From contig JBGPKU010000004.1 of assembly GCA_041486085.1 (NCBI GenBank), forward strand, positions 3,231-67,230: a stretch of 64,000 nucleotides of DNA. Reading direction: 5' to 3'. Position 1 is the stretch's first letter. Every line of letters starts with the position of its first letter. Source of the stretch: Candidatus Limnocylindria bacterium. Lineage in GTDB: Bacteria > Chloroflexota > Limnocylindria > P2-11E. The notes under the pieces were generated by a model, which ran no database searches, had not been told where the DNA came from, and saw only the letters and a program-made list of their open reading frames with translations. Positions 6,004 through 49,067 of this stretch are shown piece by piece. Both the position numbers and the translations under genes were made by a program.

Positions 6004-7011
6004 ATGCTGCGCCTTCCGAAGTTCCACTACGTCGCACCGCCCACGCTCGCCGATGCGATCCGCGTGCGCACCGAGCATCTCGAGACGTCGATGTACGTCG
6101 CGGGCGGCACCGACGTCTACCCCAAGATGAAGCGCCGGCAGTTCCAGCCCGAGGTGGTCATCTCGCTCGGACGCGTGGTCGGCGGCGAGATACGCGACGG
6201 CACGCTCGCTGCGCTCGCCGAACAGGGGCCCCTACCCCTGGGCCTGCGCGTCGGCGCCGGTGCCACGCTCACCGCGGTCGCCGCCCATCCGAAGGTCCGC
6301 GACGCCTATCGCGCGCTCAGCGAGGCCGCCGCCCTCGTGTCGACGCCACAGTTGCGCAACATGGGCACCATCGGCGGCAACGTGTGTCTCGACACGCGCT
6401 GCAACTGGTACGACCAATCCCTCTTCTGGCGCACCGCCGAAGGCTTCTGCATGAAGACGCACGCCGAGGTGGTGTGCCGCGTGGCTCCGTCGAGCGCGCG
6501 CTGTCTCGCGGTGGCGAGCGCCGACACCGTGCCCGCGCTCATCGCACTCGGCGCGACCATCCATGTCGTGGGACCGGGCGGCGAGCGCGACGTGGATCTC
6601 GCGGAGTGCTATCGCGAGGATGGCATCCGCTACCTGACGCTGGCGCCCGCAGAGGTCGTGACCGAGATCCGCCTCCCGCCGAGCGACGGCTGGCGAAGCA
6701 CGTATCTGAAACAGCGAGATCGCAATGCGTTCGACTTCCCCATCGCCGGGGTCGCCGCGGCGGTGAAGTGGGGCGGCGGCGTGGTCGTCGACGCGCGCGT
6801 CGCCATCACCGCGCTCGGATCACGTCCGGTGGCGGTCGACGCGAGCGCGCTTCGCGGCACGAAGCTCGACGACGACGCGATCACCGCCGTGGCCGACGCG
6901 ACGCACAAGGCCGCCCGACCGATGGACAACACCTCGGGCACGATCAGCCAGCGCAAGCGCGCCGCGCGCGTGTTCGCCGAGCGCGCGCTCCGGTCGCTCA
7001 GGGATGCGTGA
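6004..7011 (+). CDS. FAD-binding medium subunit, xanthine dehydrogenase family (CoxM/CutM-like), cluster 1
   Basis: 335 aa; GGTD..P and GTIGGN FAD-binding motifs of molybdopterin-dehydrogenase FAD subunits. Confidence 0.9.
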   Translation: MLRLPKFHYVAPPTLADAIRVRTEHLETSMYVAGGTDVYPKMKRRQFQPEVVISLGRVVGGEIRDGTLAALAEQGPLPLGLRVGAGATLTAVAAHPKVRDAYRALSEAAALVSTPQLRNMGTIGGNVCLDTRCNWYDQSLFWRTAEGFCMKTHAEVVCRVAPSSARCLAVASADTVPALIALGATIHVVGPGGERDVDLAECYREDGIRYLTLAPAEVVTEIRLPPSDGWRSTYLKQRDRNAFDFPIAGVAAAVKWGGGVVVDARVAITALGSRPVAVDASALRGTKLDDDAITAVADATHKAARPMDNTSGTISQRKRAARVFAERALRSLRDA

Positions 7012-13398: not shown

Positions 13399-14394
13399 CT
13401 AGCCTGCTGCGTCGAGCAGCGTGCGCTCGATGAGACCGGCTGCGACGTCGACCTTGTAGGAGTTCAGGCTCATCGGACGGGCCACGGTGCGGATCTGCGC
13501 CGCAGCGGCCTTCGCCGTCGCCTTGATGTCCTTGCCCTTGAGGGCGTCCTCGACGACCTTGGCACGGTAGGGCACCGGTGAGACGCCGCCGAGGGTGACG
13601 CGGCCGTCCTTCCAGTTGCCGCCGTCCATGGTGAAGGCCACGGCCACGGAGATCAGAGCGAAGTCGTAGACCTGCCGGTCCTTGAGCTTGCTCCAGCCGA
13701 ACTTCGTTCCCGACGCCGGGGCCGGAATGGTGACGTGGGTCATGAACTCACCGGGCTTGAGGACGTTCTCGCGGAGGACATCCACGCGTGGTCCGGTGAA
13801 GTAGTCGTCGAACGCGACCGTCTTGTCGCCATTTGCGCCCGTGATCTTCGCGGAGGCGCCCAGGGCGAGCAGCGCGGTCGACGTGTCGGAGGGGTGGACG
13901 ATGTAGCAGAGCTCGCCACCGATGATCGCGTGGTAGCGGTTGTCACCGGTAACGGCGTAGCAGAAGTCGCCGCCCTTCTTGTAGCAGTTGAAGTCCTCGC
14001 CCCGGAAGAACCAGCAGCGCGGTCGCTGGTTGATGTTCCCTCCGAGCGTGCCGAAGTTGCGGATGAGCGGTGAGGCGACGCTCTGCGCCGCCTGCCCGAG
14101 CAGACCGAACTTGTCCTGGACGACCTTGTTGTCGATGACGTCGGTCAGCGTGGTGGCCGCGCCGATCGTGAGCGAGCCGCCGCTCTCGCTGATCCCGACC
14201 ATGTCCTTGATCGTGGTGATGTCCACCAGCACCTCAGGGATCGCGAGTCCGTTGCCGTGGACCCAGTCCTTCATGAGGCCACCGACGAGATCGCTGCCGC
14301 CCGCGACCACGCGGGCATTCTTCGCGGCGTTCGCCTTCAGGAGGTCAACGGCTTCTTTGATCGTGTTCGCGTCGTACAGCTCAAACGCTCTCAT
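13399..14394 (-). CDS. FAD-binding subunit, xanthine dehydrogenase family, cluster 2 (PaoB-like)
   Basis: 331 aa; AGGSDL and GTLGGN motifs. Confidence 0.9.
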   Translation of the reverse strand: MRAFELYDANTIKEAVDLLKANAAKNARVVAGGSDLVGGLMKDWVHGNGLAIPEVLVDITTIKDMVGISESGGSLTIGAATTLTDVIDNKVVQDKFGLLGQAAQSVASPLIRNFGTLGGNINQRPRCWFFRGEDFNCYKKGGDFCYAVTGDNRYHAIIGGELCYIVHPSDTSTALLALGASAKITGANGDKTVAFDDYFTGPRVDVLRENVLKPGEFMTHVTIPAPASGTKFGWSKLKDRQVYDFALISVAVAFTMDGGNWKDGRVTLGGVSPVPYRAKVVEDALKGKDIKATAKAAAAQIRTVARPMSLNSYKVDVAAGLIERTLLDAAG

Positions 14395-14409
14395 CTCATA
14401 TCCCTCCTT

Positions 14410-16890
14410 CTAGCTTCCCTTCAGCGCCGCGAGCAGCTTGTCTCGGGTCAGAGGCATGTCGGTGATCCACACACCGACCGCGTTGTAGACCGCGTTGACG
14501 ATCGCCGGCGCGGCCGGGCCCATCGGGGGCTCGCCCATACCGTGCGCGCCGAATGTTCCGTAGGCCTTCGCCTTCTCGACGATGATCACCTCGGCCAGCG
14601 GGGCATCCTTGATGGACAGCGGTCGGTAGTCGAGCAGGTTCGCGTTGAGTGGAAGTCCGGTCGCCTTGTCGACGAGGAGCTCCTCGGTGAGGACCGCGCC
14701 GACGGACATGACCACGCCGCCTTCGACCTGCTGCCTGATGGAGAACGGGTTGATCGCCTTGCCGACGTCGTGTGCGGCGACGTACCGCGTGATCTTGACC
14801 GTGCCCGTGACGGTGTCGACCTCGACCTCGGCCGCGTGCGCGGCGAGCGCCACCTGCTCCCAGGTGGTCGGCTGAAGGTAGTTCGATACGCCGACGATCG
14901 AGGTCGCCTTGAACTGCACGACGTCCGACAGCTTCAGCGTCTGCTTCGGGTCGCTCTTCAGGGAGACGATGCCGTCGACCAGGTCGACGTCGCTCGCTGT
15001 CACGCGGGTAGTGACCGGCGGGGTCGCCTTGGTGAAGTTGTCATTGAACTTGCGGGCGCCCCAGTCGAGTACCTGGTTGCGCGCGTCGATCGCGGCCTCG
15101 TACATGCCGCGCCCACCGGTGTTGGTCATGCGGCTTCCGTTGGTGCCGCCGGTGTCGGTGGTGTTGTCGGTATCGATGTACGGCGTGATCGTGATCTGCG
15201 AGAGCGGAATGCCAAGCGCCTCCGCCGCGATCATGACCATGTGGGTCCGTTGGCCGGAGCCGATGTCCGTCGTGCCCGACACGGCCTGCACGCTTCCGTC
15301 GTTGCTGATCAGGATCTGGCCGGTCGACGGGTTGCTGCCGGCGCCGTGGCTGCAGAGGTGCACGGCCATGCCGACACCGTGATACACGCCGGGCCGGACC
15401 AGCTTGGCCTTCGGTGCGTGCCAGACCTTGCTCCAGTTCATCGCGTCACGGACCTGCGTGATGACCTCGCGTGTCCCGACGTTGCTGAACGGCCGCTTGG
15501 TGTCCGGGTTGCCGACCTCGTTGAGGTTCGCGAGCCGGAACGCGACCGGATCCATGTTGATCGCGTAGGCGGCCTTGTCCATCGTCGTCTCGAGCGCGAA
15601 CGTGCCGTTCGGGTGCGAGACGCAGCGGTACGGGCCTGACTTGTAGCTGTTGGTCATGACGTCGATCGCTTCGAGCTTCAGGTTCGGGATCGTGTAGAGG
15701 TTCTGCATGTTGACCCACGAGCCGTTGGCAGCGCTGGCGCGCTGCGCGCCGACGTTGGCGATGACCTTGAACTGGCCGAACTGGATCTTGCCGTCCCGGT
15801 TCACGCCGAGCTTCATCTCGTCGCGGAACTCGTTGCGGTGCGTCCTGGTGACGAAGTCCTCGTACCGGGTGTAGTTGTTCTTGATCGGGCGACCGGTGAC
15901 CTTGGAGAGGATCGCGGCGTGCACCTCGGACAGGTCGATGCCGCTTCGGTAGCCATAGCCGGATCCCAGATAGCCCGTCTGGAGCACGCGGACCTTGTTC
16001 TGCGGGAGCTTGAGGGCCTGCGAGAGGCCGGAGCGGGTCCCGTGCGCGTGCTGGTTGGTGTAGGTCATGTTGAGCTTGTCGCCGTCCCAGTAGGACAGCG
16101 AGTTCGTGATCTCGAGAGCGACGTGCTGCTCCACCGACTTGTGCGCCACGAGGTCGACGGTCACGTCGGCCTTCGCGTTGGTGGGGTCGCCCCGGACCAG
16201 GGGCGCCGTGACGGCGATCGTGGTCCCGTCGAGGGTGCTCGTGAACTGCTTCGGCGTCGACGACTTCATGGCCTCCAGCATGTCCGTGACGTGCGGAAGG
16301 ACCTCGTACTCCACCTTGATCAGGCGCATCGCTTCGTCCGCGATGTGCTCGCTGTCAGCGGCGATCACCGCGATCGGCGCCCCGACCTCGAAGACCTCCT
16401 CGCTGAAGATGAATCGTGTGGGCTGGGCGGAGCCGATGAAGACGTCCTTGTACTCCTCCGGAAGGTTCCCGCGGTGAAGGATCTTGGCGACGCCGGGCAT
16501 CTTCTCGGCAGCGCTGGTGTCGATCGACCTGATCTTCGCGTGCGGGTACTTGCTGCGAAGCGTTCGCATGAAGAGCATGCCCGCGATCCGCAGGTTCTCC
16601 GTGTACGTGCCCTGGTTCGTGACGATCCCATAGCCCTGGATCCGGGCGATGTCCGTGCCGAGGATCGTGAACGGGCGGAACGGGGGGAGCTCGGCGGTCG
16701 GGGCGCTCTCACGCCCGCCGCCGGGCAGCTTGTGCCCGTACATGGCGACGATCGGTGCGATGGTCTCGGATTGCTCGCCGACCATCTCCTGCCACGCCGG
16801 ATCCTGCGCGAGGTCGTTCCAGTCGGAGTCGGAGAGGCTGGCCGCGTAGGCGGGATCTTGGACGACGCGTACCGCTTCGATGTGTGCCAT
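14410..16890 (-). CDS. Molybdopterin-binding subunit, xanthine dehydrogenase family, cluster 2 (PaoC-like)
   Basis: Trimmed to the internal ATG MAHIEAV preceded by ggagggg Shine-Dalgarno; about 826 aa aldehyde-oxidase/XDH hammerhead plus Moco domains. Confidence 0.9.
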   Translation of the reverse strand: MAHIEAVRVVQDPAYAASLSDSDWNDLAQDPAWQEMVGEQSETIAPIVAMYGHKLPGGGRESAPTAELPPFRPFTILGTDIARIQGYGIVTNQGTYTENLRIAGMLFMRTLRSKYPHAKIRSIDTSAAEKMPGVAKILHRGNLPEEYKDVFIGSAQPTRFIFSEEVFEVGAPIAVIAADSEHIADEAMRLIKVEYEVLPHVTDMLEAMKSSTPKQFTSTLDGTTIAVTAPLVRGDPTNAKADVTVDLVAHKSVEQHVALEITNSLSYWDGDKLNMTYTNQHAHGTRSGLSQALKLPQNKVRVLQTGYLGSGYGYRSGIDLSEVHAAILSKVTGRPIKNNYTRYEDFVTRTHRNEFRDEMKLGVNRDGKIQFGQFKVIANVGAQRASAANGSWVNMQNLYTIPNLKLEAIDVMTNSYKSGPYRCVSHPNGTFALETTMDKAAYAINMDPVAFRLANLNEVGNPDTKRPFSNVGTREVITQVRDAMNWSKVWHAPKAKLVRPGVYHGVGMAVHLCSHGAGSNPSTGQILISNDGSVQAVSGTTDIGSGQRTHMVMIAAEALGIPLSQITITPYIDTDNTTDTGGTNGSRMTNTGGRGMYEAAIDARNQVLDWGARKFNDNFTKATPPVTTRVTASDVDLVDGIVSLKSDPKQTLKLSDVVQFKATSIVGVSNYLQPTTWEQVALAAHAAEVEVDTVTGTVKITRYVAAHDVGKAINPFSIRQQVEGGVVMSVGAVLTEELLVDKATGLPLNANLLDYRPLSIKDAPLAEVIIVEKAKAYGTFGAHGMGEPPMGPAAPAIVNAVYNAVGVWITDMPLTRDKLLAALKGS

Positions 16891-16901
16891 TTCTACCCCT
16901 C

Positions 16902-17891
16902 CTACCTGGCCGCGTGGCCGAGATCGGACAAGATGCCCCGCACCTTGGTCTCGTCCAGCTTTGCCGGGTCCCACTTCACGGTGACGCTGCGCTCGCTACC
17001 AGTGATGGCAAGGATGCCGTCGCGCTTCTTGAGCTGCTCGGCGAATGGATCGAAGTCCTCGATCGTCCCGAGCGGGCTGGCGAACGTGAACTCCTTCGAG
17101 ACACCGACGGCGGTCGGCGAGGCGTCCTTGACGCCCGTGGCATTGACCACGATCGGCGACGCGAGGTAGGTCACCTTCTCTCCGCGCATCTCGGCGGCGG
17201 CCGTGTTCACGGCCTTGTACATCTTCGCGTACTCACCACAACGGCAGATGTTGCCGGCCAGTCCCTCCTGGATCTGGACGGTGGTCGGCTTGGGGAACGC
17301 GGCGAGGAGCGCGACGGTCGACATGATGAAACCGCGCGTGCAGATGCCGCACTGGAATCCACCGTCGAGCCAGAACGCTCGCTGCACCGGATGCAGACCC
17401 GCGACGCCGGGGCCCGTTGGCAGGCTCGCGACCGTCGTCACCTTCTGACCGCGGCCGAGGCGCGCGCTCAGGATCGTGCAGCTGTTCATCGGCTTGCCGT
17501 CGACATTCACCGCGCATGCGCCGCATTGCGCGCGGTCGCACCCGAGGTTGCTGTTGTTGAGGCCGAGCTGGAAGTTCATCGTCTCCCAGAGGCTCTCTCG
17601 ATTGTCGACGACGACATCGTGTTTGGTGCCGTCGATGTTCAGCGTCACGCGCCGCGACGTCGCGGCGATCGGACCGGTGACCGCCGTGGTCGTCGCCGGC
17701 TTATCGGGATTGACGACCTTGTTGACGACGACCGCTCCGCCGAGGACCGCGCCGGTCGCAGCAGCGCCGGCACCGGCTCCGATGAGAAAGCTGCGTCGCG
17801 TGATCGAGAACGATCGTTTCTCTTCCGCTGGTTCGATGCTCGTACCCGTCCCTGGTGAAGTGGCTCCTCCTTGATCGTCTGCCACGGACAC
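16902..17891 (-). CDS. Tat-exported [2Fe-2S] subunit, xanthine dehydrogenase family, cluster 2 (PaoA-like), with about 95-aa C-terminal extension
   Basis: RRSFLIGAGAGAAATGAV twin-arginine signal; CDRAQCGACAV plus CGICTRG...CRCGEY [2Fe-2S] motifs; extra C-terminal domain ...KWDPAKLDETKVRGILSDLGH. Confidence 0.85.
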   Translation of the reverse strand: MSVADDQGGATSPGTGTSIEPAEEKRSFSITRRSFLIGAGAGAAATGAVLGGAVVVNKVVNPDKPATTTAVTGPIAATSRRVTLNIDGTKHDVVVDNRESLWETMNFQLGLNNSNLGCDRAQCGACAVNVDGKPMNSCTILSARLGRGQKVTTVASLPTGPGVAGLHPVQRAFWLDGGFQCGICTRGFIMSTVALLAAFPKPTTVQIQEGLAGNICRCGEYAKMYKAVNTAAAEMRGEKVTYLASPIVVNATGVKDASPTAVGVSKEFTFASPLGTIEDFDPFAEQLKKRDGILAITGSERSVTVKWDPAKLDETKVRGILSDLGHAAR

Positions 17892-18132
17892 ACCCCCTCC
17901 GGCGCGTTAGCGGAGAGAAATTAGCACCCACGAGAAGGGGGCAGGCCTTTCCGCTGGGTGGCAGGCGACCAGCACCGTTCGAGGGACTGCTGGTCAGACC
18001 AGAGCGGCTTCGTGCCAATTTGGGTATCGGGCCCTCAGGGTCGGTCGCGCACCGCGGTGTCCGCCGACAGCTCTGCTCAGATTTCCCGGTTTTCCTCACC
18101 GTTTCGGGGTCTCGGGCCTATTCTCAGGCGAC

Positions 18133-19239
18133 ATGCGGGAGATCTACCGGCGGATGGCGGAGCTCGAGCGCGAAGGGCGCCGCTTCGCGGTGTGCACCGT
18201 CGTGCGCACGGTCGGCAGCACGCCCCAGGTCGTCGGAGCGAAGCTGCTGGTCGACGATCTCGGTCGCCTCTCCGGCACGCTCGGCGGTGGGTGCGTCGAG
18301 GGTGACGCTTTCGTCGAAGCCAAGCGGGTCATCGAGACCGGTGATCTCTCGCTTCGGGAGTACGAGCTCACCGAGGACCTGGCCTGGGACACCGGGCTGG
18401 TGTGCGGCGGGACGATGTGGATCGCGATCGAGCCGGGCGAGCGCGCGCTGCGTCTTGGCGGCCGCGATCTCCTGGGCGACGTGCTCGCCGCATCGTCGGG
18501 CGGCAAGCCGGTCGCGGTCGCGACGCTCTTCAAGCGTCAGGGACGCGAGCTCGAGCCGGAGGGCAAGCTGTTCATCGAGACGGATGGCTCGACGCATGGC
18601 AGCCTGGGCGGTCGCGACGTGCAGGCGCGGGCTGCCGCGCTCGACGCCCTGCGCCACGGCACGGCGCGGACCATCGCCCTCGACGAGGAGCACGAGCTCC
18701 TGGTGGAGCCGGTTCTCGCGAAGCCGCGCCTCGTCGTCGCGGGAGGGGGCCATGTCGGCCTCGCGCTCGCGAAGATGGCCGCGATGCTCGAGTACGACGT
18801 CACGGTCATCGACGATCGGCCTGAGTTCTCCGCGCGGGAGCGATTCGGCCCCGGCATCGACGTGATGAGCATGGACATGGCCGACGCGCTGCGCACGATG
18901 CCGATGGGCTGGAACACTTTTGTCGTCATCGCATCCCGCGGCCACAAGCTCGACGCGCACTGCTTGCGCGAGGCAGTGAAACGAGAGGCGCGCTACGTCG
19001 GTCTGCTCGGGAGCAAGCGCAAGACGGTGCTCATCGCGAAGATGCTTCGGGCGGAGGGCATCCCCGAAGAGCGGATCCGAGCGGTGCATGCACCCATCGG
19101 CCTGGATCTCGGCGGCCGCACGCCATCGGAGATCGCGCTCTCGGTGCTGTCCGAGATGAGCATGGAGCGTCATGGCGGGACCGGTCGCCCGCTTCGGCTC
19201 CCGGATGCGACCCTCGATCGGACCGCCGCGAAGGCGTGA
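18133..19239 (+). CDS. xdhC: XdhC/CoxI-family molybdenum cofactor insertion chaperone
   Basis: 368 aa; XdhC N-terminal domain plus Rossmann-like domain (VVAGGGHVG); divergent from cluster 2. Confidence 0.85.
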   Translation: MREIYRRMAELEREGRRFAVCTVVRTVGSTPQVVGAKLLVDDLGRLSGTLGGGCVEGDAFVEAKRVIETGDLSLREYELTEDLAWDTGLVCGGTMWIAIEPGERALRLGGRDLLGDVLAASSGGKPVAVATLFKRQGRELEPEGKLFIETDGSTHGSLGGRDVQARAAALDALRHGTARTIALDEEHELLVEPVLAKPRLVVAGGGHVGLALAKMAAMLEYDVTVIDDRPEFSARERFGPGIDVMSMDMADALRTMPMGWNTFVVIASRGHKLDAHCLREAVKREARYVGLLGSKRKTVLIAKMLRAEGIPEERIRAVHAPIGLDLGGRTPSEIALSVLSEMSMERHGGTGRPLRLPDATLDRTAAKA

Positions 19240-21209: not shown

Positions 21210-21764
21210 TCAGGGCCCGCACTGTTGGCGCGTCACGTAGGCTTGCGCGTCCTGCTGGTAGGAGAGCCACATCGTCTTGATGTAGGCGAGCACATCGTTG
21301 ATCTCCGCGTCGGAGAGCTTGTCCTTGAACGCGAGCATCTTCGGCGCGCCCGGAGGAGCCATCATGTCGCGCATCGCCGCGGTCATCTCGTCGCCGCCAT
21401 CGCGGATGATCTGCTTCAGTTCGCATTCGGGGTGGTTCCAGGTATGGCCGTTGGAGTTGTGGCGCGGCGGGTAATCCGCCATCCCGCCTCCGCTCGGGCC
21501 GCCATGGCAGCTCGCGCAGCTCGCGTAATAGAGCACCTGGCCGCGTAGCTCCCGCGCGCTGAAGCTGGTCCTCGGTCGAGTGTCATCAATCGAGACGGGC
21601 GCCGCGAACCAGTTGAGACGCCAGCCGATCACCAGCCCGATCGCCACGATGACGGCAACGCCAGCGACGAACCCGAGGGCCGCGGCGAGACGCTTCGGAC
21701 GTTGACCCTGCGCGTCCGGCGCATCCATCGACGGGCAATGTAGTACGGGTGCGCCCACTACCAT
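21210..21764 (-). CDS. Membrane-anchored class I cytochrome c
   Basis: N-terminal TM helix; single CASCH heme motif; distal Met region; start may be the internal MDAPD (would end at 21728). Confidence 0.75.
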   Translation of the reverse strand: MVVGAPVLHCPSMDAPDAQGQRPKRLAAALGFVAGVAVIVAIGLVIGWRLNWFAAPVSIDDTRPRTSFSARELRGQVLYYASCASCHGGPSGGGMADYPPRHNSNGHTWNHPECELKQIIRDGGDEMTAAMRDMMAPPGAPKMLAFKDKLSDAEINDVLAYIKTMWLSYQQDAQAYVTRQQCGP

Positions 21765-21770
21765 CGGGCT

Positions 21771-22100
21771 GTGGGCCTGACCGTCTCACGTCGGCGCTTG
21801 CTCGTCCTATCAGCCGGCGCGGTCGTCACATCCTGCGCGCCTCGGTTCGACCGCCCGGGCGACGCTCTCGTCCAGCTCTACGCGAGTCCGTCGAAGAACG
21901 AGTGGCCTCCGGAGTTCCTCCAGCTGCCGGCTGAGACGCAAGCGATGTATCGGTACGCGGCTGCCAACGAGGCGACGCTGCAGTGGTTCCCCTGTTACTG
22001 CGGCTGCGTCGCGGCAGGTCACCGTTCGAACTTCGACTGCTACGTCCGCGAGGTGCTGCCGGACGGACGGATCCGCCTGGACACGATGAGCTTTGGCTGA
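21771..22100 (+). CDS. Tat lipoprotein with PCYCGC motif (putative metal/redox-binding), conservative ORF to the first TGA
   Basis: SRRRLLVLSAGAVVTSC Tat plus lipobox; motif WFPCYCGCVAAGH; ends at TGA 22098-22100 (see the next feature). Confidence 0.65.
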   Translation: MGLTVSRRRLLVLSAGAVVTSCAPRFDRPGDALVQLYASPSKNEWPPEFLQLPAETQAMYRYAAANEATLQWFPCYCGCVAAGHRSNFDCYVREVLPDGRIRLDTMSFG

Positions 22101-22238
22101 GACATCTGCACGGGGATCACGCGTGACGTGATCGACATGAAGGTGAAAGGCGTGAGCCTGCTCGCCATCAGGCACGCGATCGACGAGAAGTGGAGCGGGA
22201 AGGGTCCCGGGACGAAGACGCGGCTTCCTCCGGAGTAG
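22098..22238 (+). other. Candidate UGA(Sec)-recoded in-frame extension of the PCYCGC lipoprotein (45 further codons to TAG)
   Basis: Same frame after TGA reads U-DICTGITRDVIDMKVKGVSLLAIRHAIDEKW...; GC3 is about 90% as in genuine genes; creates a UxxC motif; SECIS-like hairpin downstream. Confidence 0.35.
22115..22133 (+). other. SECIS-like stem-loop 14 nt downstream of UGA
   Basis: GAUCACG-CGUGA-CGUGAUC: 7-bp perfect stem, 5-nt loop containing GU. Confidence 0.35.
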
Positions 22239-22365: not shown

Positions 22366-22443
22366 TTACTTCTTGGGTTCGGGCTTCGAGGTCGAGCTCC
22401 CTGAGCAGCACTGACCGCAACAAGCGCCACATGCGCACGCCAT
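22366..22443 (-). CDS. Tiny Cys-rich ORF (25 aa, 8 Cys; metallothionein-like?)
   Basis: MACACGACCGQCCSGSSTSKPEPKK; strong GGAGGUG Shine-Dalgarno 6 nt upstream of ATG; but GC3 is lower than in genome-typical genes. Confidence 0.3.
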   Translation of the reverse strand: MACACGACCGQCCSGSSTSKPEPKK

Positions 22444-22512: not shown

Positions 22513-22941
22513 GTGCAGCTCCGCGTTCTCCCGCACGGCGGCGAGCCGATACGGTGCGACGTCAGCGGCTGCTGCGTCTGGACCGCGCGGAGCTCCGTTA
22601 CCACTGTACGCGTGCGCCTATACGAGGCCAGCCGGGGAGCACTGCCCGCGTGGGCACGCATCGATAGCTTCTGCCGCAACGGACGATGCGTGAACCTCGA
22701 TCACCTGCGGATGAGCAGGGACGCAGCAGTTGGAACCGGGTCGCCAAGCGTGGCCCAGTGCCGCCGCGGCCACGACCTCACGCCCGAGAACGTCGTCAGG
22801 CACCGCGACGGGCGAGTCGCCTACTGCCGCACGTGCCGCAATGAACAGAGGCGCGATCGTTATCGCACGGACGCCGCGTTCGCCCGCGAGGAGATGGCGC
22901 GCCAGCGCGCACTGCGGCGCGGTGCTCCGCCACAATCCTAG
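22513..22941 (+). CDS. HNH endonuclease
   Basis: C..W ... DSFCRNGRCVNLDHL ... CRRGHDLTPEN...YCRTCRNE matches the HNH/zinc-finger pattern of standalone actinobacterial HNH nucleases. Confidence 0.65.
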   Translation: MQLRVLPHGGEPIRCDVSGCCVWTARSSVTTVRVRLYEASRGALPAWARIDSFCRNGRCVNLDHLRMSRDAAVGTGSPSVAQCRRGHDLTPENVVRHRDGRVAYCRTCRNEQRRDRYRTDAAFAREEMARQRALRRGAPPQS

Positions 22942-34765: not shown

Positions 34766-35740
34766 TCAGGCGGTGACGAGCGAGCGGAGCGCGCGGCGCA
34801 CGAGCTCCCGCGCAAGCGTGACCTTATAGCCGTTGTCCCGCAGCGGCTGCGCGCCGTCGAGCAGCGCGTCCGCGGCCAAAAGACAGGCGTTGTCGTCGAG
34901 CGCGGTGCCCTCGAGCAGCTTCTCGGCGGCGGGCACGCGCCATGGCACCGGCGCGACCCCGCCCAGGACCAGCCGCACGTCGGTCGCCTTCCCGTCTTTC
35001 ACACGGGCGCTCGCGGCGACCGAGACGATCGCGAAGCTCCAGGCCTTGCGTTCCATCGCCTTGAGATACGTGCCGCGGCGGTCGAGCGCCTTCTCGGGGA
35101 TGCGGACAGCGGTGATGAGCTCGCCCGCGCGGATCGAGTGCTCGCGGCGCTCGCGGCCATGCGGTGCGATGAAGAGCTCGGCCAGCTTCATGCGTCGCTT
35201 CCCAAGGCTCGAGGAGATCTCGATCTCGGCGTCGCAGGCGATGAGCGCGGGCGCGAGATCGGACGGCGAGACCATCCAGCACTCGTGCGCTCCGACGACC
35301 GCGTGATAGCGGTTCTCGCCGTCGACGGCGAAGCATCGTTTCCCGCCTTTGAGCCAGCACGGCACGCCTTCGTCGCGGAAATACCAGCAGCGGTTGCGCT
35401 GCAGCAGGTTCCCACCGACCGTGCCCATGTTCCGGATCTGCGGCGTGGCTGCGTCTCGAAGCGACTGCGGCACGATCGGCATGAGCTTCGCGAGCTCAGC
35501 GGAGTGCTCGACCACCGATAGCGGCGTGAGCGCGCCGATGCGGATGCCGCGGCCTTTCTCGCGCGCGATGCCGCGCAGGCCTGCGATGCCGGTCAGGTCC
35601 ACGAGCCGGTCGGGACGGGCGACGCCGTGACGCACCAGGGTCACCAGATCGGTGCCGCCGGCGAGCGCGATGGTCCCGTTCTTCAGCAGCTTCAGCGCTT
35701 CGGCAAGAGCCCGGGGGCGAGCGTAAGAGAAGAGGCTCAC
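34766..35740 (-). CDS. FAD-binding subunit, xanthine dehydrogenase family, cluster 3
   Basis: 324 aa; LAGGTDL and GTVGGN motifs; GTG start. Confidence 0.9.
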   Translation of the reverse strand: MSLFSYARPRALAEALKLLKNGTIALAGGTDLVTLVRHGVARPDRLVDLTGIAGLRGIAREKGRGIRIGALTPLSVVEHSAELAKLMPIVPQSLRDAATPQIRNMGTVGGNLLQRNRCWYFRDEGVPCWLKGGKRCFAVDGENRYHAVVGAHECWMVSPSDLAPALIACDAEIEISSSLGKRRMKLAELFIAPHGRERREHSIRAGELITAVRIPEKALDRRGTYLKAMERKAWSFAIVSVAASARVKDGKATDVRLVLGGVAPVPWRVPAAEKLLEGTALDDNACLLAADALLDGAQPLRDNGYKVTLARELVRRALRSLVTA

Positions 35741-35764
35741 CCGCTCACCGCCATCCCATTTGGC

Positions 35765-38059
35765 TCACGCCATGGCTCCGGCGATGGCCAGCGCCTCGAG
35801 GACACGCGCGCGGGTCATCGGCGCGTGCCGCACGCGGGCGCCGGTCGCGTTCGCGACCGCGTTGGCGACCGCGGCCGCGGTCGGGATGATCGGTGGCTCG
35901 CCGAGGCCCTTCGCGCCGAGGTTGTTCGCCTTGCGGTCCGGCGTATCGACGAATCGCACGACGATCTCCGGCGCGTCCATCGCCGTGGGGATCTCGTACC
36001 ACTCGAGGTTCGCGTTCATCACGCGGCCCAGGCCGCGGTCGACGATGCGCTCCTCGGTCAGGGCGAAACCGAGCGCCTGCATCACGCCGCCCTGCACCTG
36101 ACTCGCGGCCGTGAGCGGGTTGACGATGCGCCCGATGTCGTGCACCGCGACGATCTTCTCGACGAAGATCTCGCCGGTCCGCACGTCGACCTCGACCTGC
36201 GCGAAGTGCGCGCCGAACGTCTTTATCGCGAGGCCCGTCGGATTCGGATGGCGCAGGCCGGTGCCGACGATGGTGCTGTTCGAGAGCTTCGAGAGGATCT
36301 CCCGCAGCGGCGTGCGGGCACCCTTGCTCACGACGACGCCGCGCTCCAAGCGCAGCTCGTCCGCGCGCACTTCGAGCACCCCGCCCGCGGCGGCGAGCAG
36401 CTTCGCGCGCGCCTCGTTCGCGGCGAGGCGCACGGCCGGGCCGATGGACGCGAGCGTCACGGATCCGCCCGAGCCCGGCCCGTACGGCGCATCGGTGTCG
36501 CCGATACGAACGGTCACCTGGTCGAGGGTGAGGCCGATCTCATCGGCGCAGATCTGTGCGACCGCGGTGCGCGTCCCGGTGCCGATGTCCTGCACGCCGA
36601 CGCGGAGAACCGCGGTGCCGTCCGTTTCGAAGTGCACGTCGGCGTACGCCGGCGGCCCGCCGCCACCACCCCAGATCTGTGTCGCCATGCCGAGCCCCCG
36701 GCGGCGATGCGGCGCGGACCCGCGCATGCCTGCGGCCTTGCGCTTGCTCCAGCCGATCTCCTTCGCCCCGATGGCGTAGCAGTCCATGAGGCGCTTCAGC
36801 GTGTAGCGGTTGCCGGTGCGCGGATCGATCGCGCTCCGGGCATGTCGGCGGCGCAGCGTGAGCGGGTCGACGTTCATCGCTGCGGCGAGCTCGTCCACCG
36901 CCGACTCGAGCGCGAACGTGCCCTCGACGTAGCCCGGTGCGCGGAACGCCGACAGGGCGCCGGCGTTGGTCATCACCCGGTGCGCCGTGCTCGCGATGTT
37001 CGCGATGTCGTAGAGCGTGTTGGTGGGTCCCGTGGGATTCGCGGCCCAGCGGCCCTGGCCCGAGTTCGACCAGGACTCGTGCTCGAGCGCGACGATCCGG
37101 CCGTCCTTGCCACCGAGACGCAGGTGCTGCAGCGTCGCCGACCGGTTGCCCGCGGCGAGATTCTCCTCGCGCCGCGAGAGGATGCACCGCACCGGACGGC
37201 CAAGGCGCATGGAGAAGAGCGAGGCGTACAGCGAGTACTTGTACGTGCCCAGCTTCGCGCCGAAGCCGCCGCCCATGTACTCGCAGATGACGTGGACTTT
37301 CGCGGGGTCCATCTTCAGCGCGTTCTTGATCATGTTGCGGACTTCGAAGATGCCCTGCGTTGACTCCCAGACCGTGAGTCGATCACCATCCCACGACGCG
37401 ACCGCGCCATGCGTCTCGAGCGCGTTGTGCATCTGTGTGGAGGTGCGGTAGGTCGCCTCGACCGTGACCACGGCGTCCTTGAAACCCTTGCGCGCGTCCC
37501 CGCGCTTGTACGAGCCGGCGTCGAACACGTTCCCCTCCGGGGTCAGCTTCGGCGCCTTGTCTCGGATGGCTTCTTCGAGATCGACGACGTGCGGCAGGAT
37601 CTCGTAGTCCACCGCGATGAGTCCGAGAGCGACGCGCGCGATGTCTTCGTCGTCGGCGACGACCGCGGCAACATCGTCTCCGACGAAACGGACCTCTTCG
37701 CGGAAGATCGTCTTCTCGCTGCGGAACTCGATCTCCGGCACGTTGAATCGATGCAGGATGCCGCGCACACCGGGCAGCGCCTCGGCCTTCTTCGTGTCGA
37801 TCGCGCGCACGCGTGCGCGGGGGTAAGGGCTGCGGAGGATGAGCGCGTGCAGCATGCCCGGCAGGATCACGTCCTGCGTGTACCGCGCGGTGCCGCTCAC
37901 GCGGCTGCGGCCGTCCACCCGTGGCCGCGCGCGGCCGATCTCGCTCGAATCGGCGCCGTCCTTCGGCGCGGGAAGGTCGTTGCCCTCGACGATGACGGTC
38001 GATGTGTAGATCTCGCCCTCGAACTCATCCTTGCTCACCAGGACGCGCAGACCCGGCAT
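35765..38059 (-). CDS. Molybdopterin-binding subunit, xanthine dehydrogenase family, cluster 3
   Basis: Start moved to MPGLRV, whose ATG overlaps the stop of the upstream [2Fe-2S] gene (ATGA); about 764 aa. The listed Arg-rich N-terminus is an artefact. Confidence 0.9.
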   Translation of the reverse strand: MPGLRVLVSKDEFEGEIYTSTVIVEGNDLPAPKDGADSSEIGRARPRVDGRSRVSGTARYTQDVILPGMLHALILRSPYPRARVRAIDTKKAEALPGVRGILHRFNVPEIEFRSEKTIFREEVRFVGDDVAAVVADDEDIARVALGLIAVDYEILPHVVDLEEAIRDKAPKLTPEGNVFDAGSYKRGDARKGFKDAVVTVEATYRTSTQMHNALETHGAVASWDGDRLTVWESTQGIFEVRNMIKNALKMDPAKVHVICEYMGGGFGAKLGTYKYSLYASLFSMRLGRPVRCILSRREENLAAGNRSATLQHLRLGGKDGRIVALEHESWSNSGQGRWAANPTGPTNTLYDIANIASTAHRVMTNAGALSAFRAPGYVEGTFALESAVDELAAAMNVDPLTLRRRHARSAIDPRTGNRYTLKRLMDCYAIGAKEIGWSKRKAAGMRGSAPHRRRGLGMATQIWGGGGGPPAYADVHFETDGTAVLRVGVQDIGTGTRTAVAQICADEIGLTLDQVTVRIGDTDAPYGPGSGGSVTLASIGPAVRLAANEARAKLLAAAGGVLEVRADELRLERGVVVSKGARTPLREILSKLSNSTIVGTGLRHPNPTGLAIKTFGAHFAQVEVDVRTGEIFVEKIVAVHDIGRIVNPLTAASQVQGGVMQALGFALTEERIVDRGLGRVMNANLEWYEIPTAMDAPEIVVRFVDTPDRKANNLGAKGLGEPPIIPTAAAVANAVANATGARVRHAPMTRARVLEALAIAGAMA

Positions 38060-38541: not shown

Positions 38542-38757
38542 CTCCGACCCATCGTATCGAGGCGGGCGCTCCGATGAATTGGGCAGGGGCGACGACGCTG
38601 GGACACCGCGAGGCGTTCGCCCCGGGCACGCGCTGGCGTGCTCTTGTGTCGCGAACGGCACAGAAGGAACGTGCAACGTGCCCGTGGCGCCGCGCGGGCA
38701 TCACCGCAAGCCGCCGTATGCTCGCGTCCGACAGCGGCGGGGAGGATCCACATCGGT

Positions 38758-47766: not shown

Positions 47767-48438
47767 TCAGCGCAGGTACAGGAGAGCGGTCGGCAGGTTC
47801 GCGGCCAGATCCCACAAGCCGACCGCGATGAGGACGGCGCCCGCGATGCGCGAGACCACGCGTTGATGATGCGTGAAGAGCCGCAGCAGCGCACGCTGCC
47901 TGCCTTCGGCCGCGAGCGAGATCAAGAGAAGCGGCACACCGAAGCCGAGGCCGAAGACGAGGAAGAACAGCATCTTCTCGGCGAACGACACGACGCCGAT
48001 CGAAAGCGTGAAGATGGCCACGAGGAGCGCGCCGGAGCATGGGAGCGCGATCGGCCCGTACATCAGGCCGTAGGCGAACGCCGACCGCGCGCGCGAGCCG
48101 CCCGTCGTCGCGCCCGCGAGAACAGGTAGCCGCGAGAACGGATCGAGGCCGATCAGCAACGCACCTCCGAGCGCGACGACCGCCAGGTCCGCGAGGGGCG
48201 TCACGATGACGAGCACCCTGCCGATCGCGACCGAGAGCGCCGCGATGAGCGCACCGAGCGCGACCATCATCGTGAGCACGCCGCCGAGGACATAGACCCC
48301 GAGCCAGCGCGCGGATCCGCGCTCTCCCGCGCCTCCCGCCGCGAGGTACGCGAGGAAGCCGGGATAGAGCGGGAGCGCGCACGGAGAGAACGTCGCGAGG
48401 AGGCCGATGCCGAAGGCAGCGCCCAGCTGCTCGAGCAC
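47767..48438 (-). CDS. ccdA: Cytochrome c biogenesis thiol-disulfide transporter CcdA (DsbD beta-domain family)
   Basis: TFSPCALP and LPCSGALL paired Cys motifs in 6 TM helices. Confidence 0.85.
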   Translation of the reverse strand: MLEQLGAAFGIGLLATFSPCALPLYPGFLAYLAAGGAGERGSARWLGVYVLGGVLTMMVALGALIAALSVAIGRVLVIVTPLADLAVVALGGALLIGLDPFSRLPVLAGATTGGSRARSAFAYGLMYGPIALPCSGALLVAIFTLSIGVVSFAEKMLFFLVFGLGFGVPLLLISLAAEGRQRALLRLFTHHQRVVSRIAGAVLIAVGLWDLAANLPTALLYLR

Positions 48439-49067
48439 TAGCGGTATCGCTGGACGGCTTGACCGAGCTCGCCGGCGCTCTTGTGCCCGAAGGCGAGCAG
48501 ATGTGTCGCGCCACGCGGATCGAGCAGGAACATCGGCTCCGACGGCTGCGTCAGGAACTGCGTGCCGAACACGTCACCGAGCTCGCGCAGGACGTCACGC
48601 GGTGCGAGTGCGAAGCGCCACGGGAACCCCTGCTGCTCGACGTAGCGACGCAGCAGGTCGGCGTTCTCGCTCGAGTCCGTGTCGAGCGAGATCATCACGA
48701 CATCGCTGCCGAGGTTCGGGAGCGCGTCACGCACAACGAACTGTTGTGCCTTGCAGGACAGTCACCAGACCGCCATCCCGATGACGAGCACCGTCCTGCC
48801 GGGGAAGTCGGTGAGCTTGAACTGCCTGTCGTCGCGGACGTCGGTGAACACATAGGACAGGAACGCGGCCCGGGGGCTCGCGGCCACGGTCGGGGTCGAC
48901 GTCGAGGTCGCCATCGGGACAGCGGCGCCGGTGGCCACAGCGCCGGTCGCTCCTGTGCCGGTGGCCCCGGCGCCCGGCGAGACCGCGGGAGCCGCGCAGG
49001 CCGAAAGCGCGGCCACGAGGACCAAGCTCGCGACGAGCGCGCGCATGTTCACCTGTGTACGCAGCAT
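48438..49067 (-). CDS. TlpA/ResA-like thioredoxin-fold lipoprotein, candidate selenoprotein with UxxC active site (UGA at 48762-48764 read as Sec)
   Basis: ORFs 48762..49067 and 48438..48734 are in the same frame, separated only by TGA. Joined product is lipobox ALSAC ... GRTVLVIGMAVW-U-LSCK ... VVMISLDTD ... LLDPRG, i.e. a Redoxin fold with Sec at the first Cys of CxxC. SECIS-like hairpin follows. Confidence 0.6.
48731..48749 (-). other. SECIS-like stem-loop 12 nt downstream of the UGA in the TlpA-like mRNA
   Basis: mRNA GCACAAC-AGUUC-GUUGUGC: 7-bp perfect stem, 5-nt loop containing GU. Confidence 0.45.

What the first reader, a model, noticed from the sequence alone, without database searches (positions are those of the whole stretch)
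21771..22238. Second in-frame UGA creating a UxxC motif, in a Tat lipoprotein with PCYCGC motif next to a membrane cytochrome c
The PCYCGC-motif Tat lipoprotein ORF ends at TGA 22098-22100. The same frame continues for 45 codons (U-DICTGITRDVIDMKVKGVSLLAIRHAIDEKW... to TAG at 22236-22238). GC3 there is about 90%, as in real genes of this genome and well above the roughly 70% expected for non-coding sequence. Read-through would create U-D-I-C, another UxxC motif. Fourteen nt after the UGA lies GAUCACG-CGUGA-CGUGAUC, again a 7-bp stem with a 5-nt GU-containing loop. The gene is divergent from a mono-haem cytochrome c, and the window also contains the CcdA / TlpA(Sec) pair. This looks like a coherent periplasmic thiol/metal redox selenoproteome rather than a sequencing accident.
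Basis: seen in the sequence. Interest (0 to 1): 0.7.

Follow-up and report, generated by a model that had tools for sequence, protein, structure and literature searches.

The report
Selenocysteine codon in exported PCYCGC lipoprotein
The "stop" codon at 22098-22100 is almost certainly read as selenocysteine, so the gene encodes a 155-residue exported selenoprotein; its family is already listed as containing selenoproteins, but public annotation truncates the relatives examined at this codon.

Summary
The ORF 21771-22100 continues in frame through UGA 22098-22100 to TAG 22236-22238. The 155-residue product matches Pfam PF13798 (PCYCGC) to the end of the profile.

In 80 species-representative genomes, the aligned codon is TGA in 54 and TGC/TGT in 26. 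The downstream frame is conserved in all of them (dN/dS 0.26). All 31 close database homologs that I aligned stop at the same residue.

The TGA forms, and only they, carry a hairpin (window 22115-22133). It is 97.6% paired, with compensatory changes in 6 of 7 pairs. It meets every criterion of the published bacterial SECIS model.

A second gene in the window, TlpA-like, behaves the same way. I could not find or test the Sec machinery.

The family (OS_HP4/CYCXC, PF13798, UxxC) is already catalogued as a selenoprotein family, so this is a new, unannotated member of a known kind.

The C-terminal half resembles the cytochrome c maturation oxidoreductase CcmH (hhalign 88%, well above controls). Close relatives sit in copper-homeostasis islands next to the same monohaem cytochrome c. 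A Cys subclade sits inside ResB/CcsA/CcdA clusters. The function is inferred, not shown.

The parts
21771..22238 (+). Full coding sequence of the PCYCGC-family selenoprotein (155 codons including Sec110; stop TAG 22236-22238)
   Evidence: Translation. PF13798 hit at 83.4 bits covers residues 47-153 to the profile end. tblastn matches in other genomes span residues about 5-155.
21771..21836 (+). Export signal: twin-arginine-like SRRRLL plus lipobox ending in Cys22 (VVTSC)
   Evidence: C22 is invariant and R7, R8 are nearly invariant in 32 aligned homologs. This is a sequence-level reading; no signal-peptide predictor was run.
21990..22007 (+). PCYCGC motif (P74-C75-Y-C77-G-C79). With H84 and C90 it forms the invariant Cys/His cluster.
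   Evidence: Invariant columns Y60 P74 C75 C77 G78 C79 H84 C90 C110 C113 in 63 sequences.
22098..22100 (+). UGA decoded as selenocysteine (Sec110), first residue of U-D-I-C
   Evidence: The aligned codon is TGA in 54 and TGC/TGT in 26 of 80 species-representative loci. All 31 aligned database homologs end here.
22107..22109 (+). Cys113 codon (TGC), partner of Sec110 in the UxxC motif
   Evidence: Invariant column.
22115..22133 (+). Core SECIS hairpin: 7-bp stem GAUCACG/CGUGAUC with 5-nt loop CGUGA. The loop starts 21 nt after the UGA.
   Evidence: 97.6% of cells are paired in 54 TGA forms. Six of 7 pairs carry compensatory changes, and 0/500 shuffles reach the observed value. Pairing is 54% and equal to shuffles in 26 Cys forms. 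Third codon positions are 93-96% conserved inside the hairpin. The hairpin meets all four bSECIS criteria.
22103..22145 (+). Extended lower stem around the SECIS core in this window
   Evidence: MFE structure. The lower stem was not tested for covariation.
21210..21764 (-). Divergent membrane-anchored monohaem cytochrome c, a recurrent neighbour of the Sec-form clade
   Evidence: PF00034 and PF13442 hits. Window-cytochrome homologs lie next to the PCYCGC gene in L001 and within 2.7 kb in L004 (blastp). A shared PPRHNxNGHTWHHP motif is seen by eye in L102/L103. A Pfam cytochrome c lies immediately upstream in L104/L105.
22366..22443 (-). Convergent 25-codon Cys-rich mini-ORF (MACACGACCGQCCSGSSTSKPEPKK); possible accessory, status uncertain
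   Evidence: A near-identical peptide lies downstream of the PCYCGC gene in L007.
48438..49067 (-). Second candidate selenoprotein gene of the window: TlpA/Redoxin-like lipoprotein with TGA 48762-48764 in W-U-L-S-C, and hairpin GCACAAC-AGUUC-GUUGUGC 12 nt after the UGA. The CcdA-like ORF 47767-48438(-), assigned by eye, follows it.
   Evidence: Weak Redoxin hit (24 bits). TGA plus hairpin are conserved in 15/15 metagenome relatives that cover the site.

Best explanation
The gene 21771-22238(+) encodes a 155-residue exported lipoprotein of Pfam family PF13798 (PCYCGC, also called CYCXC or OS_HP4).

**Recoding (comparative evidence; my estimate about 0.9).** UGA 22098-22100 is not a stop. It is recoded to selenocysteine by a SelB-type mechanism that uses the in-frame hairpin 22115-22133 as a bacterial SECIS element. 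The product carries Sec110-x-x-Cys113.

**Reactive centre (inferred; about 0.7).** In a high-confidence model of a 54%-identical Cys homolog, the equivalent CxxC caps the N-terminus of an alpha-helix. That is the usual geometry of redox-active or soft-metal-binding CxxC sites. Sec occupies the first position of the motif, which established knowledge suggests is the nucleophilic one. The invariant C-x-C-x-C...H...C cluster lies between helix 1 and the UxxC.

**Function (inferred; about 0.5).** From remote homology and gene neighbourhoods, I take the protein to be a CcmH-like extracytoplasmic selenol/thiol oxidoreductase or Cu(I)-handling protein. It would work with the neighbouring membrane-anchored monohaem cytochrome c, in copper homeostasis and/or c-type cytochrome maturation. 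The exact substrate is unknown.
For: **Recoding**
- The codon is TGA in 54 and TGC/TGT in 26 of 80 species-level loci. These span Chloroflexota, Thermomicrobiales, Binatia, Rokubacteria, Methylomirabilales, deltaproteobacteria, Bacillota and others. The downstream frame is conserved in all.
- All 31 nearest database homologs aligned (63-82% identity) end at ...DTMSFG. Nearly all of the 120 hits listed are 92-131 aa long and cover 52-70% of the query.
- Cys forms at 54-61% identity exist within the same clade.
- dN/dS is 0.26 after the UGA and 0.14 before it. GC3 is 0.89 in the extension.
- TGA is the commonest ordinary stop in the window, 31 of 57 ORFs, so there is no global reassignment.

**SECIS**
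- Pairing is 97.6% with compensatory changes in 6 of 7 pairs, and slid and shuffled controls fail.
- The structure is absent in Cys forms.
- Synonymous sites inside the hairpin are 93-96% conserved, including the third-position U (93%) of the Arg codon in the loop.
- Loop 5 nt, stem 7 bp, G at loop position 2 followed by U, spacing 21 nt and -8.0 kcal/mol all fit the published bSECIS model.

**Lineage uses Sec**
- A second in-window gene keeps TGA plus its hairpin in 15/15 relatives.

**Family**
- PF13798 scores 83.4 bits.
- A 2026 review lists PF13798/OS_HP4 as a UxxC selenoprotein family.

**Function**
- The AlphaFold model has domain pLDDT above 95, with the CxxC at the start of helix 141-155.
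- hhalign of the PCYCGC profile against a CcmH profile gives 88.4% probability, E 2.8e-6, score 43.6. The maximum over 60 column-shuffled controls was 19.9, and the reversed control scored 15.5. A second alignment places G[U/C]xxC on CcmH's RCPKC.
- Seven Cys-form loci share the order multihaem cytochrome, PCYCGC, CcdA, ResB, CcsA, Trx-like (one or two members missing where a contig ends), and an eighth (L073) has the same genes rearranged.
- Four of four distinct contexts of close Sec-form relatives contain copper or metal genes. These include CopC/CopD, CsoR, YHS, an HMA P-type ATPase, multicopper oxidase, cupredoxin, Caa3_CtaG, CDF and ArsR. A cytochrome c gene lies immediately adjacent in two of them.
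Against: - No selA, selB, selD or tRNA-Sec was seen in the window or in any fetched locus. Only part of the window's ORFs were scanned against Pfam.
- The source genome is not available beyond this window; the only exact match was a 1.4-kb contig.
- Rfam reports no SECIS family hit.
- The protein scores 46.5 bits against NCBIfam NF041379, below its cutoff of 90. Ten other Sec forms also fall below it.
- The fold z-score of the single sequence is only -2.85.
- For function: no member hits Pfam CcmH, even at E up to 10.
- No solved structure matches by sequence.
- The window itself has no copper genes near the locus.
- The hhalign match covers only 36-44 columns.
Confidence: 0.85

Rival explanations
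1. The UGA is a genuine stop. The functional product is the 109-residue protein, and the downstream 45 codons are untranslated or belong to something else.
For: This is how the public gene calls examined treat it. Nearly all of the 120 listed clusters are 92-131 aa and cover 52-70% of the query. No Sec machinery was seen.
Against: The downstream frame is conserved at the protein level in 80 species, with dN/dS 0.26 and GC3 0.89. It completes the Pfam domain to its last position. It holds the invariant Cys113. Cys-codon forms are read straight through. A truncated product would lack two of the three helices of the modelled domain.
Confidence: 0.03
2. The gene is a pseudogene, or the TGA is a sequencing or assembly error from a TGC/TGT codon in this one genome.
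For: TGA differs from TGC or TGT by one base.
Against: The same TGA occurs in 54 independent species-level genomes and in many metagenome assemblies from different sources. It co-occurs with a covarying hairpin that Cys forms lack.
Confidence: 0.01
3. The UGA is recoded, but to something other than Sec. One option is Cys inserted by a SelB-dependent tRNA-Cys(UCA)-type system. Another is near-cognate read-through.
For: The Sec machinery could not be checked. Cys is the residue in homologs. From my own knowledge, unverified here, selC-like tRNAs charged with Cys have been proposed in some bacteria.
Against: The hairpin fits the SelB-type bSECIS model. The family is catalogued as a selenoprotein family. 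Two different UxxC genes in the window behave alike. Sec/Cys alternation across many phyla is the classical selenoprotein pattern.
Confidence: 0.05
4. This is a functional rival that accepts the Sec recoding. The protein is purely a soft-metal (Cu(I)/Zn/Cd) binding chaperone or sink. Sec, Cys113 and the CxCxC-H-C cluster act as ligands. It would have no oxidoreductase activity and no role in cytochrome c maturation.
For: Among Sec-form loci, 16 of 55 have CDF, P-type ATPase or ArsR genes within 5 kb, and DUF305 sits next to one further locus, L008. Close relatives sit among CopC/CopD, CsoR, YHS, CopA-type ATPase, multicopper oxidase and cupredoxin genes. A Cys-rich mini-ORF lies next to the gene.
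Against: There is a CcmH-like profile match with the CxxC aligned to CcmH's redox CxxC. A Cys subclade is embedded in ResB/CcsA/CcdA/Trx clusters with no metal genes. A cytochrome c partner recurs. The two roles are not mutually exclusive.
Confidence: 0.3

Closest known systems
OS_HP4 / 'CYCXC family (seleno)protein' (NCBIfam NF041379; listed under Pfam PF13798 with a UxxC Sec motif in PMC13188914, attributed to Zhang & Gladyshev 2007)
   Same: It has the same Pfam domain (83.4 bits) and the same CxCxC motif. It has one Sec in a UxxC motif. The only position in this domain where a conserved Cys has a Cys three residues downstream is 110/113. Both Sec and Cys forms coexist.
   Different: The window protein and ten other Sec forms score 46-78 bits against NF041379, below its cutoff of 90. 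They therefore lie outside that equivalog. They are longer than the model, about 150-190 aa against a 90-position profile, and carry a lipoprotein signal. I could not view an OS_HP4 sequence, so identity of the Sec column is inferred, not shown.
CcmH / CycL / NrfF periplasmic domain (Pfam PF03918; PDB 2hl7, 2kw0), the System I apocytochrome c thiol reductase
   Same: Both are extracytoplasmic small helical domains with a CxxC followed by two helices that share the pattern ...EGKS..EI..Y...(K/R)Y(G/S). hhalign gives 88.4% probability and E 2.8e-6, far above shuffled controls, and the CxxC motifs align. CcmH is the second-ranked structural neighbour by two methods. A Cys subclade lies inside cytochrome c biogenesis clusters.
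   Different: There is no HMMER-level hit to PF03918. The structural scores are weak. PCYCGC proteins carry an extra invariant CxCxC-H-C insertion and a beta-hairpin between helix 1 and the CxxC, and 13 fewer residues after it. They occur with System II (ResB/CcsA), not System I. CcmH is not in the selenoprotein table rows I read.
Sec-containing thioredoxin-fold thiol:disulfide interchange proteins (for example 'Trx-like 2', UxxC, in the GOS selenoproteome, PMC2398784)
   Same: These are exported proteins with a UxxC redox motif, Sec in the first position of the motif and Cys homologs. The window's own TlpA-like gene is of this kind.
   Different: The fold differs. The PCYCGC model is a helical bundle with a Cys-rich insertion, not a thioredoxin fold.
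Bacterial SECIS consensus model (bSECIS constraints as given in PMC13188914, Fig. 2 legend)
   Same: The apical loop is 5 nt against an allowed 3-9. The upper stem is 7 bp against 4-16. There is a G followed by U within the first two loop positions. The spacing between UGA and loop is 21 nt against 16-37.
   Different: The element is unusually invariant in sequence across phyla (RUCACG-CGUGA-CGUGAY). It encodes the conserved peptide I/V-T-R-D-V, so RNA and protein constraints are entangled.

Membership tests
Pfam PF13798 (PCYCGC) | Profile HMM score above the gathering threshold (25 bits) | tested here: met
   83.4 bits, E 2e-23. Residues 47-153 match profile positions 44-153 of 153 when the UGA is read through.
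Pfam PF13798 (PCYCGC) | PCYCGC motif plus the further conserved cysteines, including the lipobox Cys | tested here: met
   P74-C75-Y-C77-G-C79, H84, C90, U110 and C113 all fall in invariant columns. C22 (lipobox) is nearly invariant.
NCBIfam NF041379 OS_HP4_CYCXC (seleno)protein, equivalog | Whole-protein score at or above the curated cutoff (90 bits) | tested here: not met
   46.5 bits for the window protein. Ten other TGA forms score 49-78 bits.
NCBIfam NF041379 OS_HP4_CYCXC (seleno)protein, equivalog | Sec in a UxxC motif at the same column as in OS_HP4 | tested here: inconclusive
   The UxxC is present, and it is the only CxxC-type spacing among the conserved Cys. No OS_HP4 sequence could be retrieved to align.
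Bacterial selenoprotein gene | In-frame UGA aligned with Cys in homologs, with a conserved coding sequence downstream | tested here: met
   54 TGA against 26 TGC/TGT in 80 loci. dN/dS downstream is 0.26.
Bacterial selenoprotein gene | SECIS stem-loop immediately downstream that fits the bSECIS model and is conserved as a structure | tested here: met
   All four model criteria are met. Covariation is present in TGA forms and absent in Cys forms.
Bacterial selenoprotein gene | Sec machinery (selA, selB, selC/tRNA-Sec, selD) in the same genome | not testable with these tools
   None was found in the 64-kb window or in about 100 fetched loci. Only part of the window's ORFs were scanned against Pfam.
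Bacterial selenoprotein gene | Selenium demonstrated in the protein (75Se labelling or mass spectrometry) | not testable with these tools
   This needs an experiment.
CcmH/CycL/NrfF (Pfam PF03918) | Profile HMM hit to PF03918 | tested here: not met
   None of 34 members hits PF03918, even at E up to 10.
CcmH/CycL/NrfF (Pfam PF03918) | Remote homology by profile-profile comparison, with the CxxC motifs aligned | tested here: inconclusive
   88.4% probability, E 2.8e-6, score 43.6 against a control maximum of 19.9. The CxxC motifs align in the A4 against A8 comparison (65.7%). Only 36-44 columns are covered.
CcmH/CycL/NrfF (Pfam PF03918) | Same three-helix fold | tested here: inconclusive
Tat-exported lipoprotein | Twin-arginine motif followed by a hydrophobic stretch and a lipobox Cys | tested here: inconclusive
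   SRRRLLVLSAGAVVTSC is present, and R7, R8 and C22 are conserved. No dedicated predictor was available. Firmicute members have Sec-type signals without RR.

The most novel reading that the evidence does not exclude
The PCYCGC/CYCXC family is a previously unrecognised relative of CcmH. It would be an extracytoplasmic thiol (or selenol) oxidoreductase that supplies System II (ResB/CcsA) organisms with the CcmH-like step of apocytochrome c CxxCH handling. In the Sec-form clade it would be recruited to copper islands to keep cytochrome c thiols reduced or metal-free under copper stress. Selenocysteine would make the attacking residue more reactive. c-Type cytochrome assembly is a documented periplasmic target of copper toxicity (PMC4600104).
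Probability: 0.3. Interest if true: 0.6.

Novelty: new member of a known kind. Interest (0 to 1): 0.35.

Why it matters
**Annotation.** Every close relative I aligned from the protein collection is truncated at the Sec codon. Each loses the invariant Cys113 and two helices of the domain. The NCBIfam model meant to catch this family's selenoproteins misses this clade. That is a concrete, fixable annotation error affecting soil and freshwater Chloroflexota, Binatia, Rokubacteria and others.

**Biology.** The locus adds an exported, lipid-anchored selenoprotein to lineages not noted for selenium use, and a second one lies in the same window. The comparative data also give the first testable functional lead for a domain of unknown function. 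That lead is a CcmH-like U/CxxC centre linked to a monohaem cytochrome c, to copper homeostasis and to System II cytochrome c biogenesis.

Tried and rejected
- **Structure of the window protein.** I modelled the Cys homolog P0122 instead.
- **Rfam.** The gathering scan of the window found only a fluoride riboswitch and no SECIS family.
- **tRNA-Sec.** ARAGORN found none in the window or in 88 loci.
- **Source genome.** An exact look-up of the neighbouring cytochrome c found only a 1.4-kb contig, so the source genome could not be reached.
- **Solved structures.** A profile search of PDB sequences gave nothing significant, with saposin and ferredoxin at E 0.03-0.06. Foldseek against the PDB had no hit with E at or below 1.
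- **Pfam CcmH.** A scan of 34 members at E up to 10 gave no CcmH hit.
- **Sec machinery in the window.** A Pfam scan of nine window ORFs I had not assigned by eye gave no Sec machinery.
- **Literature.** There were no papers on Limnocylindria plus selenocysteine, and no mention of Chloroflexi in Peng et al. 2016. OS_HP4 is not described by name in the main text of the 2007 or 2008 Zhang & Gladyshev papers. It appears only in review tables.
- **Other read-through candidates.** I considered and rejected the adjacent same-frame ORFs 35765-38155 and 34766-35764. They look like separate xanthine-dehydrogenase-family subunit genes.
- **Other TGA sites.** I rejected the TGA at 15380, which lies on the strand opposite a large ORF, and the TGA at 56163, which is a junction between two ORFs that look like permeases.
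Full report
**1. What is in the sequence**

The + strand ORF from GTG 21771 ends at TGA 22098-22100 and gives 109 aa. The same frame continues for 45 codons to TAG 22236-22238.

The read-through product has 155 residues. It begins with MGLTVSRRRLLVLSAGAVVTSC, which is twin-arginine-like with a lipobox. It contains PCYCGC at residues 74-79 and would carry U110-D-I-C113.

GC3 is 0.83 in the ORF, 0.89 in the extension, and 0.61-0.70 in any frame of the 200 nt after the TAG.

Fourteen nucleotides after the UGA lies GAUCACG-CGUGA-CGUGAUC at 22115-22133. The hairpin alone folds at -8.0 kcal/mol. Within a longer stem (22103-22145) it folds at -16.2 kcal/mol. The 63-nt fold has z = -2.85 against shuffles.

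The divergent neighbour 21210-21764(-) is a membrane-anchored cytochrome c with one CxxCH.

**2. Is the extension coding?**

With the UGA read through, the protein matches Pfam PF13798 (PCYCGC) at 83.4 bits. The match covers residues 47-153 and runs to the last position of the profile, 153/153. The 45 extra codons are therefore the missing C-terminal third of a known domain.

A search of the 5.8-billion-protein collection returned more than 120 clusters at 64-83% identity. Nearly all are 92-131 aa long and cover only 52-70% of the query.

All 31 that I aligned end at exactly ...DTMSFG, the residue before the window's UGA. A stop conserved to the codon across that much divergence is the usual signature of a Sec codon mistaken for a terminator.

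**3. DNA of relatives**

A scan of one genome per species returned 80 loci. tblastn matches in them run through the whole 155 residues.

- The codon aligned with 22098-22100 is TGA in 54 loci and TGC or TGT in 26.
- In every locus the frame continues with xxC..(I/V)TRDV(M/I).M...G.SL..IR..ID.KY...GP.T.P.
- The TGA forms occur in Chloroflexota/Limnocylindria, Thermomicrobiales (including the isolate Thermomicrobium sp. CFH 73360), Binatia, Rokubacteria, Methylomirabilales, deltaproteobacteria, Tectomicrobia, Bacillota, Acidobacteriota, Verrucomicrobiota and a Methylomonas MAG.

Cys forms at 54-61% identity to the window protein exist within the same clade (P0122, P0129). In a 63-sequence alignment the invariant columns are Y60, P74, C75, C77, G78, C79, H84, C90, C110 (U here) and C113.

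Among the window and its eight closest loci, dN/dS is 0.14 for the 45 codons before the UGA and 0.26 for the 40 after it. TGA terminates 31 of the 57 likely genes of the window, so UGA is not globally reassigned.

**4. The hairpin is a SECIS element**

I aligned the 51 nt from the UGA in 54 TGA forms. The result is gapless, with consensus RUCACG-CGUGA-CGUGAY at columns 18-36.

| Measure | TGA forms | Cys forms |
|---|---|---|
| Cells paired | 97.6% | 54.4% |
| Pairs with changes on both sides | 6 of 7 | 4 of 7 |
| Against 500 shuffles | 0/500 reach any measure | indistinguishable from shuffles |

Examples of compensatory changes are AUCGCG/CGCGAU, AUAGCG/CGCUAU, AUCGUG/CACGAU and GUCACC/GGUGAU. 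When the 3' partner is slid by 1 to 3 columns, pairing in the TGA forms falls to 7-65%.

Third codon positions inside the hairpin are 93-96% conserved in TGA forms. That compares with 43-85% outside it and 50-65% in Cys forms. The loop Arg codon keeps U at its third position in 93% of TGA forms. The conserved peptide (I/V)(T/A)R in TGA forms becomes VAL, ITL or TTL in Cys forms. So part of the protein conservation is imposed by the RNA.

The element meets all four criteria of the published bacterial SECIS model. It has a 5-nt loop, a 7-bp stem, G then U within the first two loop positions, and 21 nt between the UGA and the loop. It folds at -8.0 kcal/mol, within the model's limit of -7.5.

**5. 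Does the lineage decode Sec?**

I found no tRNA-Sec and no selA, selB or selD in the window or in the fetched loci. Only part of the window's ORFs were scanned against Pfam. The only exact public match to the locus is a 1.4-kb contig. The machinery therefore cannot be tested here.

There is indirect support. A scan of every TGA in the window for coding-like sequence on both sides returns only four sites. Two of them are UxxC sites.

The second site is a TlpA/Redoxin-like lipoprotein gene at 48438-49067(-), just upstream of a CcdA-like ORF (assigned by eye). It has TGA 48762-48764 in W-U-L-S-C. The hairpin GCACAAC-AGUUC-GUUGUGC lies 12 nt downstream. All 15 metagenome relatives that cover the site (56-79% identity) keep both the TGA and the hairpin.

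**6. What is already known**

NCBIfam NF041379 is named 'OS_HP4_CYCXC, CYCXC family (seleno)protein'. The window protein hits it at 46.5 bits, below the cutoff of 90. Ten other TGA forms score 49-78 bits.

[quoted passage not shown] A 2022 review lists OS_HP4 with UxxC (PMC9312934).

So a Sec form of the PCYCGC domain with a UxxC motif is already on record. What is not on record, as far as the searches show, is this large clade of lipoprotein-type members. Public annotation truncates them and the curated model does not reach them. The only functional comment I found is that a Parageobacillus PCYCGC lipoprotein has unknown function (PMC13068155).

**7. How it probably works**

*Structure.* An AlphaFold model of the Cys homolog P0122 (54% identical over the full length) is confident in the domain, with pLDDT 91-98 for residues 70-185. 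The order of elements is:

- a helix (84-100);
- the Cys/His-rich loop with PCYCGC, H and C;
- a beta-hairpin;
- C140-x-x-C143 capping the N-terminus of helix 141-155;
- a last helix (160-171).

A CxxC at a helix N-terminus is, from established knowledge, the geometry of redox-active sites (thioredoxin, DsbA, CcmH) and of soft-metal sites (CopZ, MerP). In selenoproteins of these types Sec typically takes the reactive position.

*Profile comparison.* After confirming the CcmH sequences in the PDB, I built a 40-sequence CcmH alignment.

- hhalign of a 62-sequence PCYCGC alignment against it gives 88.4% probability, E 2.8e-6 and score 43.6 over the last two helices.
- The shared pattern is ...EGKS..EI..Y...(K/R)Y(G/S).
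- The 34-sequence alignment gives 65.7% and places G[U/C]xxC on CcmH's RCPKC.
- Reversed CcmH alignments score 8.6 and 15.5. Sixty column-shuffled CcmH alignments reach at most 19.9, with mean 12.7 and sd 2.4.
- HMMER finds no PF03918 hit.

I read this as probable remote homology, not as membership.

*Gene neighbourhoods.*

| Set | Neighbourhood |
|---|---|
| Eight Cys-form loci (Limnocylindria, Chloroflexota, Dehalococcoidia) | multihaem cytochrome, PCYCGC, one gene, CcdA, ResB, CcsA, thioredoxin-like, all on one strand (L073 rearranged; some members missing at contig ends) |
| Sec-form loci | 16 of 55 have CDF, HMA P-type ATPase or ArsR genes within 5 kb; DUF305 sits next to L008 |
| Four close relatives (69-78% identical) on long contigs | all lie among metal genes: CopC/CopD, CsoR, YHS, CopA-type ATPase, multicopper oxidase, cupredoxin, Caa3_CtaG, ZIP, CDF, ArsR |

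A monohaem cytochrome c also lies next to the PCYCGC gene in relatives. It is immediately upstream in L001 (a blastp homolog of the window's protein). It is immediately downstream in L102/L103, where the PPRHNxNGHTWHHP motif is shared. A Pfam cytochrome c is immediately upstream in L104/L105. The L004 homolog lies within 2.7 kb.

Copper is known to poison c-type cytochrome assembly in the periplasm (PMC4600104).

*Working model.* My best reading is a CcmH-like selenol/thiol centre that acts on cytochrome c-related or copper-bound thiols outside the membrane. The Cys/His cluster would serve as a metal site or a second redox site. This part is inference. I put about 0.5 on it, and about 0.3 on a pure metal-chaperone role.

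**8. Verdict**

Direct evidence is still missing: the Sec machinery in this genome and selenium in the protein.

This is a new, unannotated member of a selenoprotein family already catalogued at Pfam level. It lies outside the curated NCBIfam equivalog. Interest is moderate to low for the recoding itself. The CcmH-like relationship and the copper and cytochrome c context are the parts worth following up.

Noticed in passing
window 48438-49067 (-), TGA at 48762-48764; CcdA-like ORF at 47767-48438 (-): A TlpA/Redoxin-like lipoprotein gene has an in-frame TGA in W-U-L-S-C. The hairpin GCACAAC-AGUUC-GUUGUGC lies 12 nt downstream. All 15 metagenome relatives that cover the site keep both the TGA and the hairpin. 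It is very likely a second selenoprotein gene.
   Followed up: partly
window 22366-22443 (-); L007 7235-7309 (-): A 25-codon Cys-rich mini-ORF, MACACGACCGQCCSGSSTSKPEPKK (8 Cys), is convergent with the PCYCGC gene and lies 128 nt beyond its stop. A near-identical peptide sits 773 nt downstream of the PCYCGC gene in a Chloroflexi MAG. It looks metallothionein-like. It is not called as a gene, and I did not test whether it is expressed.
   Followed up: partly
L044-L046, L049, L067, L071, L073, L078 (Cys-form loci): There is a conserved same-strand cluster: multihaem cytochrome c, PCYCGC, one gene, CcdA, ResB, CcsA, thioredoxin-like. A domain of unknown function is therefore embedded in a System II cytochrome c biogenesis operon.
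   Followed up: partly
alignments A4/A6 (PCYCGC) against A8 (CcmH): There is profile-profile similarity between the C-terminal half of PF13798 and CcmH (PF03918). It reaches 88.4% probability and score 43.6, against at most 19.9 in 60 shuffled controls. The CxxC motifs align. In the searches made I found no paper that reports this relationship.
   Followed up: yes
L100, L102-L107 (close Sec-form relatives): The gene sits in copper and metal islands. These hold CopC/CopD, CsoR, YHS, an HMA P-type ATPase, multicopper oxidase, cupredoxin, Caa3_CtaG, ZIP, CDF and ArsR. A monohaem cytochrome c is directly adjacent in L102/L103 and L104/L105.
   Followed up: partly
window 1890-1957 (-): A fluoride riboswitch (RF01734, 41.9 bits) lies directly upstream of the membrane-protein ORF 702-1940(-), which looks like a cation/proton antiporter by eye. 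The ORF was not scanned against any family library.
   Followed up: no
P0018 (database protein, 107 aa): A truncated PCYCGC homolog carries the JGI name 'anaerobic selenocysteine-containing dehydrogenase'. This is probably a mis-transfer driven by the twin-arginine signal. It is not evidence about Sec.
   Followed up: no
window 22513-22941 (+): This ORF encodes a Cys/His-rich 142-aa protein (…CRNGRCVNLDHL…CRRGHDL…CRTCRNEQ…). It resembles an HNH or zinc-finger nuclease and lies between the PCYCGC gene and the ECF sigma factor gene. I did not scan it.
   Followed up: no
window 3400-7011, 13399-17906, 34766-38700: There are three separate sets of xanthine dehydrogenase / CO dehydrogenase-family ORFs (molybdopterin, FAD and 2Fe-2S subunits), plus XdhC-like (17911-19239) and MobA-like ORFs. 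I assigned these by eye from translations. They were not scanned against Pfam.
   Followed up: no
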